Shown here piece after piece: positions 10 to 7,973 of a stretch of 7,973 nt of DNA. Source of the DNA: Candidatus Wukongarchaeum yapensis (GTDB lineage Archaea > Asgardarchaeota > Wukongarchaeia > Wukongarchaeales > Wukongarchaeaceae). The position numbers and the translations under genes are program-made. The first letter of the stretch is position 1. Each line of letters starts with the position of its first letter. A model generated the notes under the pieces. It saw only the letters and a program-made list of their open reading frames with translations, was not told where the DNA came from and searched no databases. The stretch covers positions 1 to 7,973 of the forward strand of contig JAEOSI010000096.1 in assembly GCA_016840425.1 (NCBI GenBank), in the 5' to 3' direction.

Positions 10-1392
10 TTATTTTTCTCGCTTTTTTAGGCTGGCTATCCTAAAGGCATAAGCTCCAAGACCTCCAAGGGTTACTATTGCAGCCATGGCCATAAGTATT
101 AACGCTGTGGAGTTTAAAGATGTTCGAGGAGCCTCTTCTGGGAAAACGTCCACCATGATCCATGGATATGTTGTGATGTTTGTGTATCCGCGAACCTTTG
201 AACTGTTTGTCGAAAATTCTATCGCTCCAGCTTTCTCAAAAGTTGTAGAGTTATAGACAGCGTAGAAATGTTTTCCCATCCTACTAATATTTAACATAGT
301 TATGTTCATTGTGCCTATTTTATGTACTACAAAGCTTGCGTTTATTCCCGCAACTTCTTCCATGTTTTCGTCTTCGATTATCACAGAAACATTCACTTGC
401 TCCCCATAAGTTATCTGTTCTTTATCGGTGGTCATATCCTCATAAAGGACTACACCCTTAAGCTTTGCAAGCCATTTTATCGTTTCATTGGCAAACAGCA
501 AGTTTTCATAAGCGCTAAAATTACCGCTGCTATTTGTATAAGTGTTGTTAAACATTGTAACAGAGCCTATTCCTATAAATCTTCCCTGATTTTCTGTTTC
601 AGCGCACACACCTAAAACTACATCTGTTCCATTAATATCTCCTACATCATTTACCGAGTTATTGTTTTTATCAGCAAAAGCGGTATCGCTTGCCCATGTT
701 AAGTTATAATGGTCAACTACTTCAAGGATTGTGGAATTTATTAAGGAACTGTTAGTGGTTATAGGTATACCTCGGTATATTAGGGAGGCATTTTTTTGGT
801 CTAAAACAAGGGTTTGAGGGATTCCATCCAAGAAGAAAGGGACTTTTATTGAGGTTGTTGTGTTTTCATAATTTACTGGATCTATTACTGTTACATTTTC
901 AAGGAACTTGAAACCAAAATATTGGGTCACATTGTTGATATTGGTATCGGTGTTTGGACCTTCTGGAGCATTACAAATCATAAGACTTCCGCCTTTCTTA
1001 ACAAACTCCTTTAGCGCGTCAATAGCGCTCTCTGTAAAAGTCAAATTGGACTGAATAAAGATAATGAAAACGTCTACACCTCGCAAATCAATGGATGCAA
1101 AATCCGTCCTAATAACAGTTTCATTCTCCCAAACATCGAGATCGAAACCGGTTTCATTCTCTAACATATCTAAAAATATGCTTGCAGATGTCTTGTTAAT
1201 ATATTGAGACACGTTTGCAGCAAAATTTACAAGCACTCTAATATCTTCGGGCTCAGGTATCGTGGTGTCGGAAATTGTTTCTCTTCCAACGGGATTAGAT
1301 TCAATTTTAGATAAGGAATAAGTGAAAGATGTAGAGAATATAACGAAGAGAAATAAGATTGCCATTAAAACTGCTTTGTTTTTAAAACCCAT
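10..1392 (-). CDS. Exported, C-terminally membrane-anchored glycoprotein with a GIFT/DUF4350/GldG-like (class I GATase-like fold) domain and a probable Ig-like domain
   Basis: 460 aa. Basic plus hydrophobic N-terminus (MGFKNKAVLMAILFLFVIF). GIFT-type motifs DVFII...FTESAIDALKEFVKKGGSLMI, INNVTQYFG and GRFIGIGSVTMFNN...NLLFANETIKWL. C-terminal TM helix (ALILMAMAAIVTLGGLGAYAF) with basic tail KKREK. About 26 N-x-S/T sequons by manual count. Domain call is by motif recognition only. Confidence 0.7.
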   Translation of the reverse strand: MGFKNKAVLMAILFLFVIFSTSFTYSLSKIESNPVGRETISDTTIPEPEDIRVLVNFAANVSQYINKTSASIFLDMLENETGFDLDVWENETVIRTDFASIDLRGVDVFIIFIQSNLTFTESAIDALKEFVKKGGSLMICNAPEGPNTDTNINNVTQYFGFKFLENVTVIDPVNYENTTTSIKVPFFLDGIPQTLVLDQKNASLIYRGIPITTNSSLINSTILEVVDHYNLTWASDTAFADKNNNSVNDVGDINGTDVVLGVCAETENQGRFIGIGSVTMFNNTYTNSSGNFSAYENLLFANETIKWLAKLKGVVLYEDMTTDKEQITYGEQVNVSVIIEDENMEEVAGINASFVVHKIGTMNITMLNISRMGKHFYAVYNSTTFEKAGAIEFSTNSSKVRGYTNITTYPWIMVDVFPEEAPRTSLNSTALILMAMAAIVTLGGLGAYAFRIASLKKREK

Positions 1393-1526
1393 TTTTTATG
1401 GCGCTCCATAAGCTTTTACTGTGTAAAATTTTTAAGTTGAGAGGATAGCATAGGTTTTTGATTTTCTTTTTTCAACTTTTATTTTAGTAGTTGGGTTTTC
1501 TTTTTATATGTATAGGTTTAATAAAG

Positions 1527-1592: not shown

Positions 1593-2168
1593 TTGACAAT
1601 CAGTTCTATTGATGAGAAAGCTGTTTCTGAGAGATTAATTGAGGGCATCAAAGCCGTTATTAAGAATAGAGGATACACCCCGGTTAGCGCGGAGGATAAG
1701 GGGGATAAGATAGAAGTTTTAGGGGAGAAAAAGGAGGGAAGGAAGAAGATTCAGGTTGTTGCTTGGCTGCCCAAGTTTAAAACTATTGGTGTTAAATTTG
1801 TCAGGGAATTGAAAAAGTCGATGGAAGAAAGAAAGATACATAATGGTTTTTTGTTAACTGTGGGCAAATATACGCACTATACGCGTAAGGAAGTTTCGGG
1901 AAATGAGAATATTGAACTTATACCGGCCGAATACGCCTTTTTTGATATTTTCGTTCATGATTTAGTGCCAGAACATGAAATAGTTTCAGAGGAAGAAGTG
2001 GGAAAATTAGTGAAGGACTATGGAATTCAAGTTAATCAGTTAGCTATGCTAAAAGCGAGTGACCCTGTTGCTCGGGCTGTAGGGGCGCGTGCAGGGGATG
2101 TCGTGAAGATTACAAGAAAAAGTCCTACTGCTGGTGTTTCGGTAGCTTACCGTTACGTTGTAAAATGA
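1593..2168 (+). CDS. rpo5: DNA-directed RNA polymerase subunit Rpo5 (RpoH/RPB5), long two-domain form
   Basis: 191 aa, TTG start. The C-terminal ~75 aa is the classic Rpb5_C domain (HDLVPEHEIVSEEE...DPVARAVGARAGDVVKITRKSPTAGVSVAYRYVV). The N-terminal ~115 aa resembles the eukaryotic RPB5 jaw domain (NRGY; IGVKFVRELKKSMEERKIHNGFLL). Confidence 0.92.
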   Translation: MTISSIDEKAVSERLIEGIKAVIKNRGYTPVSAEDKGDKIEVLGEKKEGRKKIQVVAWLPKFKTIGVKFVRELKKSMEERKIHNGFLLTVGKYTHYTRKEVSGNENIELIPAEYAFFDIFVHDLVPEHEIVSEEEVGKLVKDYGIQVNQLAMLKASDPVARAVGARAGDVVKITRKSPTAGVSVAYRYVVK

Positions 2169-6335: not shown

Positions 6336-7627
6336 TTACCGGTATAAGTTGTCTTCAAAGCTTTTAGGCGTCGTATTGGCACAATATAATCGGAGTTTAA
6401 GCGGTTTCTTTACAACATCTCCTATTGTGCCTCCTACAAGTATACTTATGTCTTTTTCAGCAGCTACGTCAACAATACGCTGTGTTATGACTCCATCAAA
6501 AACTACAGCGTGAATTTTTTCCGCTATATTTTGAATCTTTTCAACTAATTCTCTTACCGGTATCCTTGAAATTTCTTTGAAATTTTCGTCAAGTAAAACG
6601 CTTTCACCAGTACCTTCTATTTGCACAACGATATCGGTTAAGGGTTCGGGTAGATCTATCCTTTCTTCTTCCTTTTTTGGCAGAGGGGCTTTAATGGCTT
6701 TTTCTTCTATTATCTTCTTTTTTTCAAGCTGTTTCTTAGGTTTTCTTGCTTTTAGAGAGATTTCTGGTAATTGCTCTAACGGCATCTTGTTTCTTAAAGC
6801 CTTAATCACTTCTTTCCTTTTAAGTTCTTCAACTTCTTTACTTGGAGGAGCTCTTGATACATAGTCAACATCTGCCACTTGCAACAGTTCAGCTAAAATA
6901 AGATCACCGCCTCGATCACCGTCAAGAAAAGCGGTAACAGTTTTTGATTTGGATAGCTCAATGATTGTCTTTGGTATGCTCGTGCCTTCTACCGCTATAG
7001 TGTTTCTTATACCGTATTTTAAGAGATTAACAACGTCCGCCCTCCCCTCAACGATTATTATGCTGTCAGCTTCTTCCACATCAGGACCACCAGGAAGTCC
7101 TTCGTGACCGTAATTTTTAATAGTGCTTCCCCGAACCGATTTAACCACTTCTTCTGCAAGTTCGGAGTAGCTTAGGCTTTCTCCTTCCTCCCAGTTTCGA
7201 ATCAAGTCAATAGCCCTATCGATCACTTGTCGCCTTTTCGATTCTCTAACGTCTTCTATCTTTTCAACTCTAACATTCGCTTCACAAGGACCGATACGAT
7301 CAACTGTTTCTAAAGCACCAGCCAATATGGCTGTCTCAACTTTATCTAGAGAGCTTGGAATTATTATTGAGCCGGAGCATTTTCCGCCTTCACTTTTCAG
7401 CTCTACTTGAATTCTACCAATCCGCCCCGATTTTTGTAGTTCACGCAATTCTAAGTCCGGGCCTAAAAGACCCTCCGTTTAACCCCGATCGTGAGATTCC
7501 ACGCCCCGGTTTGGCCAAAAAGAGCGCCAACTACATCAGACTTTTCACACATGCCGTTAGTTTCAAACCGAGAACGGATTAAATATTTAGTAGTACCGCT
7601 CATTATCGAGCTTGTATCTCTACCCAT
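6336..7627 (-). CDS. dnaG: Archaeal DnaG (TOPRIM protein, exosome-associated in Sulfolobus). Two exons: 7627-7511 and 7478-6336, predicted 419 aa
   Basis: Exon 1 (39 codons): MGRDTSSIMSGTTKYLIRSRFETNGMCEKSDVVGALFGQ, with AGGAGGA SD at 7643-7637. Exon 2 begins TEGLLGPDLELRELQKSGRIGRI and contains TOPRIM motifs IIVEGRADV and FLDGDRGGD, plus the C-terminal FDGVITQR. Joined, they give the canonical archaeal DnaG N-terminus. Confidence 0.93.
7479..7510 (-). other. 32-nt bulge-helix-bulge (BHB) intron in a protein-coding gene
   Basis: RNA ACCGGGGCGUGGAAUCUCACGAUCGGGGUUAA. Exon GGCC pairs with intron GGUU (central 4-bp helix), each strand followed by an AAA bulge. Inner stems are CCGG/UCGG and CGUG/CACG. 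Cuts after the second bulge nucleotide give GGC CAA|ACG GAG GGU (G-Q-T-E-G). Confidence 0.85.
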
Positions 7628-7636
7628 GATTATGAA

Positions 7637-7672
7637 TCCTCCTGAAAAATTTTCGTTTCTAAACGATTAAAA
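7637..7672 (-). promoter_or_regulatory. dnaG SD (AGGAGGA) and candidate TATA-like box with an adjacent palindrome
   Basis: Minus strand reads TTTTAATC (7672-7665), CGTTTAGAAACG, then AGGAGGA 9 nt before ATG 7627. TCGTTT-ct-AAACGA palindrome at 7653-7666. Confidence 0.45.
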
Positions 7673-7973
7673 GGCGCAAAAAACAAAACGCCTTCTACAA
7701 TACATTCTAAGCTAAGGTTTTAACCAACATTTTTACAAATTACAAGCAAATAAATGGTATAAGTAAACGTTATATTAGTGAGGAATTTCTTTACAGATGA
7801 TACAACATGTTTTATATCTTTAACCTTTACTATAATAATTATATGGTTTTTCAGAATTAAAAATCTTCATATTATATATACTTTACATGATCTTCGTTTG
7901 GCTAACTATTTTAAGATTTCCGAATTCTCCAAAGATAGGAAAAAATAGATAATAAATAAAAGAAAGGGGGTGG

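What the first reader, a model, noticed from the sequence alone, without database searches (positions are those of the whole stretch)
7479..7510. Archaeal BHB-type intron splitting the protein-coding gene dnaG
Seen in sequence: the conserved DnaG motif GALFGQTEGLLG is interrupted between Q39 and T40 by 32 extra nt (19/32 GC, far above the AT-rich surroundings) that shift the frame. The pre-mRNA folds as 5'-CUUUUU GGCC AA^A CCGG GG CGUG GAAUCU CACG A UCGG GGUU AA^A C GGAGGG-3'. This gives a central 4-bp helix (GGCC/GGUU, two G-C and two G.U pairs), two 3-nt AAA bulges, an inner intron hairpin, and an outer exon helix rich in G.U pairs with one closing U/C mismatch (relaxed BHB). Established: the archaeal tRNA splicing endonuclease (EndA) cuts after the second nucleotide of each bulge, and RtcB ligates. 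Those two cuts remove exactly 32 nt and rebuild CAA ACG GAG, so structure and protein conservation independently give the same junction. mRNA introns of this type are well documented mainly for crenarchaeal cbf5, and I do not know of one described in dnaG. Inference: the gene is intact and spliced rather than a pseudogene.
Basis: partly seen in the sequence, partly recalled or inferred. Interest (0 to 1): 0.93.

Follow-up and report, generated by a model that had tools for sequence, protein, structure and literature searches.

The report
tRNA-type intron splitting Asgard dnaG
The only dnaG gene of this Asgard archaeon is broken by a 32-base insert with the shape that the archaeal tRNA-splicing enzymes cut, so the mRNA almost certainly has to be spliced; published cases of this inside a coding sequence are limited to one gene (cbf5), but splicing was not seen at the RNA level here.

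Summary
Observation confirmed. On the minus strand, dnaG reads M…GALFGQ (7627-7511), then 32 frame-shifting bases (7510-7479, 59% GC in a 38% GC genome), then TEGLLG… to its stop (7478-6336).

The insert is at the same place, also 32 nt, in four other congeneric assemblies. Both exons are under purifying selection (omega 0.10-0.18). The ten codons after the junction have only synonymous changes and no start codon.

The geometry is bulge-helix-bulge: GGCC/GGUU helix, two AAA bulges, cuts that remove exactly 32 nt.

The minimum-energy fold pairs the 3' AAA with exon UUU, and that helix is not conserved. This is a relaxed motif.

New here: the same codon boundary carries 29-43 nt inserts in two other Asgard families (54 more genomes). 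Across 52 distinct sequences the glycine wobble base always pairs with an intron base, using six pair types.

The genome encodes a broad-specificity EndA alpha subunit and RtcB. At least three other genes in it (pcm, Alba, aIF2-alpha) have such introns.

No RNA data cover the junction.

This scan has noted dnaG introns before on other DNA (Lokiarchaeia, Hermodarchaeia, Brockarchaeota). No paper in the searched library describes one.

Verdict: a new member of a known kind.

The parts
7638..7642 (-). Shine-Dalgarno-like GGAGG, 10 nt upstream of the exon-1 ATG
   Evidence: Read directly from the sequence. Conserved in L002, L036, L040 and L041.
7511..7627 (-). dnaG exon 1: 39 codons, M...GALFGQ
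   Evidence: Translation. Against the relatives, dN is 0-0.011 and dS is 0.23-0.41.
7513..7516 (-). 5' strand of the central 4-bp helix (GGCC; Gly codon plus the first base of Gln)
   Evidence: It pairs with 7481-7484. Across 52 distinct same-site introns all four pairs are kept, and the Gly wobble pair shows six pair types.
7510..7512 (-). 5' bulge AAA; predicted cut between 7511 and 7510
   Evidence: It is a 3-nt bulge in the minimum-energy fold. The geometry was tested.
7479..7510 (-). 32-nt intron (59% G+C)
   Evidence: It is single copy in the genome and has no Rfam match.
7485..7509 (-). Intron-internal helix h' (CCGG/UCGG) closing a 5-bp hairpin (CGUGG/UCACG)
   Evidence: The four variable positions among congeners are G-U to A-U in h', one internal-loop base and two hairpin-loop bases.
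7481..7484 (-). 3' strand of the central helix (GGUU), the last paired bases of the intron
7478..7480 (-). 3' bulge AAA; predicted cut between 7479 and 7478
   Evidence: The geometry was tested. In the minimum-energy fold these A's pair with exon U7517-7519. In half of the 52 related sequences that pairing loses its closing pair.
6336..7478 (-). dnaG exon 2: 380 codons plus stop, TEGLLG... with the Toprim domain
   Evidence: Translation. Pfam Toprim_4, Toprim and Toprim_2 match. Omega is 0.10-0.18. Gene callers in the protein collection start it further in, giving products of 363-376 aa.

Best explanation
The 32 nt at 7510-7479 are a bulge-helix-bulge (BHB) type intron in the dnaG pre-mRNA.

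Proposed mechanism:
- The transcript folds so that exon bases GGCC pair with intron bases GGUU.
- Each strand of this 4-bp helix is followed by an AAA triplet.
- The intron's own hairpin (CCGG/UCGG plus CGUGG/UCACG) closes the inner side.
- The organism's splicing endonuclease cuts after the second A of each triplet. The enzyme is a crenarchaeal-type alpha subunit that keeps the broad-specificity loop, presumably working with a beta subunit.
- RtcB joins the exons to give ...GGC CAA|ACG GAG..., the only mRNA that encodes a full DnaG (419 aa).

The exon side of the 3' cut is not held by a conserved helix, so this is a relaxed (HBh'-like) motif, not a strict hBHBh'.

Shown here: the anatomy, its conservation and covariation, the selection on both exons, and the presence of the enzyme genes. 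Inferred: cleavage, ligation and which enzymes act. The intron may have no function of its own beyond having to be removed; it does make DnaG synthesis depend on the tRNA-splicing machinery.
For: (1) Exact excision restores the universal GA(I/L/V)FGQ|TEGLLG motif.

(2) BHB geometry occurs only at the offset that gives the right product. The chance of that is about 2e-4.

(3) The same 32-nt insert is present in G001/L002, L036 (a JGI metagenome), L040 and L041 (Logan contigs), and in a DNA contig of an unrelated mangrove run that runs through it without a gap.

(4) Exon 1 has dN 0-0.011 against dS 0.23-0.41; exon 2 has omega 0.10-0.18. The intron differs at only 2-3 of 32 positions, and three of its four variable positions would be non-synonymous if translated.

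(5) The ten codons between the junction and the first possible start (TTG at 7448) show only synonymous changes. The exon-2 frame has a TAA immediately before the junction, so this frame must be entered exactly at the junction.

(6) The same codon boundary carries 29-43 nt inserts in 3 genomes of family f7 and 51 genomes of family f9. In 52 distinct sequences, 206 of 208 central-helix cells are standard pairs. The pair involving the Gly wobble base is standard in 52/52, using C-G, U-G, A-U, G-C, G-U and U-A; 0 of 20,000 shuffles reach this. Sliding the partner by one base drops pairing from 0.99 to about 0.5.

(7) These inserts come in all three length phases and many carry in-frame stops. That rules out one recoding mechanism for all of them.

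(8) EndA alpha is encoded at C113:735-1346. Its best solved relative is the Aeropyrum pernix alpha subunit 3P1Z_B (E 1.7e-49), and the alignment runs without a gap through the specificity loop, with Lys and Lys at the K44 and R46 positions. RtcB is at C137. PMC3241643 ties this loop to cleavage of relaxed motifs. PMC5829648 reports the (alpha-beta)2 type with this loop in Asgard archaea.

(9) The same genome has BHB introns that restore conserved motifs in pcm (C126:5278, 30 nt), Alba (C201:428, 36 nt) and aIF2-alpha (C70:1481, 30 nt). 16 of the 18 tRNA genes that ARAGORN finds have a predicted intron.
Against: - No RNA evidence: no spliced junction and no circular intron were seen.
- The minimum-energy fold pairs the 3' AAA with exon UUU, 4.6 kcal/mol better than leaving it open.
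- Within this genus the central helix never varies, so the compensatory evidence comes from other families whose introns may not be homologous.
- An EndA beta subunit was not found with the Pfam models used; the genome is 92% complete.
Confidence: 0.87

Rival explanations
1. Translational recoding: the ribosome passes the insert by a hop (take-off at CAA, landing on the near-cognate UAA, 32 nt apart) or by a frameshift just before ACG. The mRNA would stay unspliced.
For: The take-off and landing triplets are similar (CAA / UAA), and a stable hairpin lies in the gap.
Against: No stop codon or slippery heptamer lies at the take-off site. Intron substitutions are mostly non-synonymous in the read-through frame. 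Same-site inserts in other families have all three length phases and immediate in-frame stops, and in nine of the 52 distinct sequences a CAG take-off. The covariation is specific to a 4-bp helix flanked by 3-nt bulges, a feature a hop does not need.
Confidence: 0.03
2. The gene is broken. It is either a pseudogene, or a split gene giving a 54-aa N-terminal peptide and a 370-aa protein started at TTG 7448.
For: Gene callers annotate it this way: products of 363-376 aa plus a 54-58 aa ORF.
Against: This is the only dnaG in a 92%-complete genome. Both parts are under purifying selection, including the ten codons upstream of the TTG, which no start codon can reach. The GGAGG lies about 21 nt from that TTG. 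The break sits inside the most conserved motif, in 58 sequences from three families.
Confidence: 0.03
3. The insert is removed from the RNA, but by something other than EndA and RtcB: another nuclease and ligase pair, or self-cleavage.
For: The 3' site lacks a conserved closing helix, and cleavage was not tested.
Against: Nothing matches any Rfam ribozyme or intron family. The conserved features are exactly those read by EndA. The enzymes are present, and 16 of 18 ARAGORN tRNA predictions in this genome carry a predicted intron.
Confidence: 0.05
4. Assembly or sequencing artefact.
For: None.
Against: The same insert occurs in a second MAG, a JGI contig, two Logan contigs and a mangrove-run contig, with a few substitutions among them. 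The 801-nt stretch around it (6900-7700) is held by DNA runs from many separate studies, up to 15 counted with the three low-share RNA runs.
Confidence: 0.005

Closest known systems
cbf5 pre-mRNA intron of Crenarchaeota (Watanabe 2002; Yokobori 2009, PMC2738675)
   Same: A short BHB-type intron inside a protein-coding sequence. It is removed by the tRNA-splicing endonuclease and ligase, is patchily present among relatives, and occurs in organisms with the (alpha-beta)2 endonuclease.
   Different: The gene is different (dnaG, not cbf5) and so is the phylum (Asgard). Splicing of cbf5 was shown experimentally; here it is inferred. According to PMC7714728, cbf5 was the only coding-sequence case reported up to 2020.
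tRNA introns of intron-rich Asgard archaea (Valentin-Alvarado 2024, PMC11291895; bioRxiv 10.64898/2026.10.13.758758)
   Same: The same presumed machinery, the same size range, and frequent relaxed or non-canonical motifs in the same phylum.
   Different: Those papers deal with tRNA genes only. The terms 'mRNA' and 'cbf5' do not occur in the 2026 preprint, and every passage mentioning introns in the 2024 paper concerns tRNA.
BHB intron in the 5' UTR of Haloferax volcanii HVO_1309 (PMC7714728)
   Same: An mRNA substrate of the splicing endonuclease.
   Different: It lies in the untranslated leader, so the reading frame does not depend on it.
dnaG inserts in other lineages noted earlier by this scan (Lokiarchaeia 37 nt at the same codon; Hermodarchaeia 28 nt; Brockarchaeota 32 nt)
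   Same: The same gene. For the Lokiarchaeia-type (my family f9) it is the identical codon boundary, with the same helix and bulge layout.
   Different: The internal sequence and length differ, so homology with the intron of this genus cannot be shown. The 28-nt type sits 13 nt further downstream. These are unpublished AI notes; I re-derived the f9 and f12 cases myself and did not examine the Brockarchaeota case.

Membership tests
Archaeal BHB (splicing-endonuclease) intron | Central 4-bp helix with a 3-nt bulge 3' of each strand | tested here: met
   GGCC/GGUU pairs 4 of 4, with AAA after each strand, only at offset 0. Across 52 same-site sequences the helix is kept, with six pair types at one position.
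Archaeal BHB (splicing-endonuclease) intron | Cuts after the second bulge base excise the intron exactly and restore the functional product | tested here: met
   Removal of 7510-7479 restores GALFGQTEGLLG in frame.
Archaeal BHB (splicing-endonuclease) intron | Inner flanking helix h' | tested here: met
   CCGG/UCGG plus a 5-bp hairpin. One G-U to A-U change occurs among congeners.
Strict hBHBh' motif | Outer exon-exon helix h closing the 3' bulge | tested here: not met
   The closing pair is a U/C mismatch here and forms in 0 of 52 related sequences. The positions that do pair show no compensatory change (h3 invariant U-G; h5 U-A or U-G). The minimum-energy fold uses another register. I therefore file it as a relaxed (HBh'-like) motif.
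Archaeal BHB (splicing-endonuclease) intron | Host encodes a splicing endonuclease able to cut relaxed motifs, and an RtcB ligase | tested here: met
   EndA alpha has N and C domains and is closest to A. pernix 3P1Z_B, with the specificity loop retained; RtcB scores 586 bits. A beta subunit was not found with the queries used.
Archaeal BHB (splicing-endonuclease) intron | Spliced RNA and excised (circular) intron observed | not testable with these tools
   No RNA run was listed for the gene's 5' half. RNA-library contigs cover only 6661-7063.
Archaeal DnaG (Toprim primase / exosome subunit) | Toprim domain and conserved N-terminal GxxFGQTEGLLG motif, full-length similarity to DnaG | tested here: met
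   Pfam Toprim_4 E 9.7e-12. 50-57% identity over more than 94% of its length to proteins named DNA primase DnaG.

The most novel reading that the evidence does not exclude
The FGQ|TEG boundary of dnaG is a shared or repeatedly re-used intron site across Asgard classes. I found it occupied in three GTDB families, with a second site 13 nt downstream in a fourth. This genome carries a whole set of endonuclease-spliced mRNA introns (dnaG, pcm, Alba, aIF2-alpha and probably more). If so, protein-spliced introns in coding genes would be a regular feature of gene structure in the closest archaeal relatives of eukaryotes. They would be either inherited from deep Asgard ancestors or spread by site-specific insertion into mRNA folds that already resemble half a BHB.
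Probability: 0.45. Interest if true: 0.85.

Novelty: new member of a known kind. Interest (0 to 1): 0.62.

Why it matters
In the searched library, the published record has this kind of splicing interrupting a coding sequence in one gene only (cbf5), in one other phylum. Here the single copy of a core gene cannot be read without it, in the archaeal phylum closest to eukaryotes. DnaG is reported as a primase and is an RNA-binding subunit of the archaeal exosome (PMC7667871).

In practice, gene callers split or truncate the gene: every close homologue in the 5.8-billion-protein collection is a 363-376 aa fragment. Proteomes and marker sets built from these genomes are therefore wrong at this locus.

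For evolution, one codon boundary occupied in three families, with presence/absence differences inside single genera, gives a tractable system for asking how such introns are gained and lost. The covariation with a synonymous codon position also shows that the intron constrains the codon choice of its host gene.

Tried and rejected
- RNA evidence. A search for RNA runs holding 7100-7640 listed none. Three RNA-library runs with small word shares were laid. Their contigs cover only 6661-7063 and say nothing about the junction.
- Genome-wide, homology-free scan for BHB motifs whose removal joins two open frames. About 128,000 geometric candidates were found. After open-frame and codon-usage filters, the 3-4-3 geometry was no more frequent than control geometries (3-3-3, 3-5-3, 2-4-2, 4-4-4, 3-6-3). 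The strictest filter even lost dnaG. The scan cannot count mRNA introns and I dropped it.
- More congeners. The metagenome scan gave only one further relative. The ENA contig for P0004 had no DNA available.
- Other RNA classes. No Rfam match at E up to 1 in 7300-7750.
- Mobile-element idea. The intron has no second copy in the genome or in the window.
- EndA beta subunit. Not found with PF01974 or PF02778; only the alpha gene matched.
- Family f30 (12 genomes). All open frames are long at this locus, so I looked no further for an intron there.
- Literature. Searches for a dnaG or Asgard mRNA BHB intron found none.

Full report
**What is there.** The window is a whole contig (C87) of a 2.16-Mb, 92%-complete genome. 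A congeneric genome carries the title 'Candidatus Hodarchaeota archaeon'. I did not resolve which is right; it is an Asgard archaeon either way.

On the minus strand, a GGAGG (7642-7638) and an ATG (7627) open 39 codons that end in ...VVGALFGQ at 7511. Then come 32 bases (7510-7479, 19 G+C, in a genome of 38% G+C) that shift the frame. From 7478, TEGLLGPDLELRELQ... runs for 380 codons to the stop at 6336. The downstream part has a Toprim domain. It is 50-57% identical over its length to proteins named DNA primase DnaG. It is the only dnaG match in the genome.

**Is the gene alive?** The same 32-nt insert sits at the same place in:
- the congeneric genome G001 (90% protein identity);
- a JGI metagenome contig (88%);
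- two Logan contigs.

A contig of an unrelated mangrove DNA run also passes through it without a gap. This rules out an assembly artefact.

Between these sequences, exon 1 has dN 0-0.011 against dS 0.23-0.41, and exon 2 has omega 0.10-0.18. The intron differs at 2-3 of 32 positions, which is slower than synonymous sites. Its four variable positions are:
- a G-U to A-U change in the inner helix;
- one internal-loop base;
- two hairpin-loop bases.

Three of the four would change an amino acid if the insert were translated.

The most telling detail is in the ten codons between the junction and the first possible start codon of the downstream frame (TTG at 7448). They show only synonymous differences (ACG/ACA, GGT/GGG, TTA/TTG/CTA, GAC/GAT). 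That frame also has a TAA immediately before the junction. These codons are therefore translated, and the frame must be entered exactly at the junction.

**The fold.** The helix GGCC/GGUU, the two AAA triplets, the inner helix CCGG/UCGG and the hairpin CGUGG/UCACG are all present. The 5' AAA is a clean 3-nt bulge in the minimum-energy structure. In a scan of all 4.6e8 (site, length) pairs of this genome, a geometry at least this good occurs at a rate of 4.7e-5. That is about 2e-4 for a junction fixed in advance by the protein alignment.

The weak point is the exon side of the 3' cut:
- the minimum-energy fold (-26.4 kcal/mol) pairs the 3' AAA with exon UUU;
- forcing both triplets open costs 4.6 kcal/mol;

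**Relatives change the picture.** The same-order genome G002 and 26 other sequence-checked Asgard genomes from a dozen families have an uninterrupted FGQTEG. However, the identical codon boundary is interrupted in two other families:
- 3 genomes of family f7, with inserts of 31-34 nt;
- 51 of the 65 sequence-checked genomes of family f9, with inserts of 29-43 nt.

126 f9 genomes have a dnaG match. The 61 I did not fetch have long open frames at this locus. Presence and absence both occur inside two f9 genera. Earlier notes of this scan identify the f9-type as Lokiarchaeia.

In all 58 sequences the best offset is again 0. In the 52 distinct ones:
- 206 of 208 central-helix cells are standard pairs;
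- sliding the partner strand by one base drops pairing from 0.99 to about 0.5;
- the pair between the wobble base of the Gly codon and an intron base is standard in 52 of 52, as C-G, U-G, A-U, G-C, G-U or U-A;
- that pair switches within single genera, and 0 of 20,000 column shuffles reach the observed value.

This is compensatory evolution between a synonymous codon position and the intron, which is what a functional central helix predicts.

The outer helix fails the same test. Its closing pair forms in 0 of 52 sequences, and the only positions that always pair there show no compensatory change (one is an invariant U-G, the other is U-A or U-G). The alternative AAA-UUU pairing loses its closing pair in half of the sequences, those with a TTC Phe codon. 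The motif is therefore a relaxed BHB: central helix, 5' bulge and inner helix are firm, and the 3' site is loosely held.

The inserts come in all three length phases and many begin with an in-frame stop. No single frameshift or hopping mechanism could serve them all.

**Machinery.** The genome encodes one EndA with N- and C-terminal domains (C113:735-1346). Its best solved relative is the catalytic alpha subunit of the Aeropyrum pernix heterotetramer (3P1Z_B, E 1.7e-49). The alignment runs without a gap through the 'Crenarchaea-specific loop', and positive residues occupy the K44 and R46 positions. That loop confers cleavage of relaxed motifs (PMC3241643). It was reported for Asgard (alpha-beta)2 enzymes (PMC5829648). 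RtcB is present. I did not find the beta subunit with the Pfam models.

**The same genome uses this route elsewhere.**
- ARAGORN finds only 18 tRNA genes, 16 of them with a predicted intron.
- Following leads from first-stage notes, I confirmed three more coding-sequence introns, each restoring a conserved motif:
  - a 30-nt canonical BHB intron in pcm (restores GQTISAPHMV);
  - a 36-nt one in Alba (KPV|MNYV);
  - a 30-nt one in aIF2-alpha (HISE|IASTWVRNIR).
- The dnaG intron itself is single copy and matches no Rfam family.

**What is missing.** No public RNA run covers the junction. Cleavage, ligation and the identity of the enzymes are inferred, not shown.

**Comparison with what is known.** A 2020 study states that cbf5 of Crenarchaeota is the only reported BHB intron in an archaeal mRNA besides its own 5'-UTR case (PMC7714728; PMC2738675). 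Papers on Asgard introns treat tRNA genes. My searches found no paper on a dnaG or Asgard mRNA intron.

Inside this scan the theme is not new. 97 notes in at least 71 genomes mention dnaG introns, and follow-ups describe them in Lokiarchaeia, Hermodarchaeia and Brockarchaeota. Other Asgard genes are noted as well.

This case adds a further lineage. Its intron has a different internal sequence at the same site as the Lokiarchaeia-type. That leaves open whether the site is ancient or repeatedly re-used.

**Verdict.** I put the probability at about 0.87 that this is a splicing-endonuclease intron of the relaxed type. It is a new member of a known kind. It is of real interest as part of an unpublished, wider pattern, but it is still unproven at the RNA level.

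Noticed in passing
L029 about 1470-1500 (+) and L030 (-), genomes G042 and G059 (family f12): In this family dnaG carries a 28-nt canonical BHB intron 13 nt downstream of the site studied here: GCCU AC^A ... GGG(C/U) AA^U, with an inner helix of 5-9 bp. Removal restores FGQTEGLLGEDLDLRELQ. Fifteen f12 genomes listed have open frames of 384-410 aa, with matches starting at query residue 2. Earlier scan notes call this type Hermodarchaeia.
   Followed up: partly
G000 C126:5278 (-), C201:428 (+), C70:1481 (-): Three more coding-sequence BHB introns occur in the same genome: pcm (30 nt, in-frame UGA), Alba (36 nt) and aIF2-alpha (30 nt, 9-bp inner helix). Each restores a conserved motif when removed. 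First-stage notes also list a radical SAM gene and ftr, which I did not check.
   Followed up: partly
G000, whole genome: ARAGORN finds only 18 tRNA genes in a 92%-complete 2.16-Mb genome, and 16 of them have a predicted intron. Many tRNA genes are probably hidden by multiple or non-canonical introns.
   Followed up: no
window 1593-2165 (+): A 191-aa protein joins an N-terminal Mrr_cat-like (restriction-endonuclease fold) domain to the Rpb5 C-terminal domain (RNA polymerase subunit H). Its two-domain length recalls eukaryotic Rpb5 more than the short archaeal RpoH.
   Followed up: no
window 13-1392 (-): A 460-aa protein matches the N-terminal domain of OST48 (oligosaccharyltransferase subunit, E 7.8e-14, above the Pfam cut-off). 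It also matches IFT52 GIFT (35 bits, above that family's cut-off of 27.2). This is a eukaryote-type family.
   Followed up: no
G060:C30:3416-4564, G104, G105, G107, G111, G116, G149: The dnaG matches in these Asgard genomes contain a single in-frame TAA or TAG further inside the gene. These could be further in-frame introns at other dnaG positions.
   Followed up: no
window 6661-7063: Contigs from three RNA-labelled libraries (one of them only guessed to be RNA) match this part of exon 2. A leaf-litter metatranscriptome contig is 98.8% identical over 403 nt. This hints that the gene or a close relative's is transcribed, but DNA carry-over is not excluded and the junction is not covered.
   Followed up: partly
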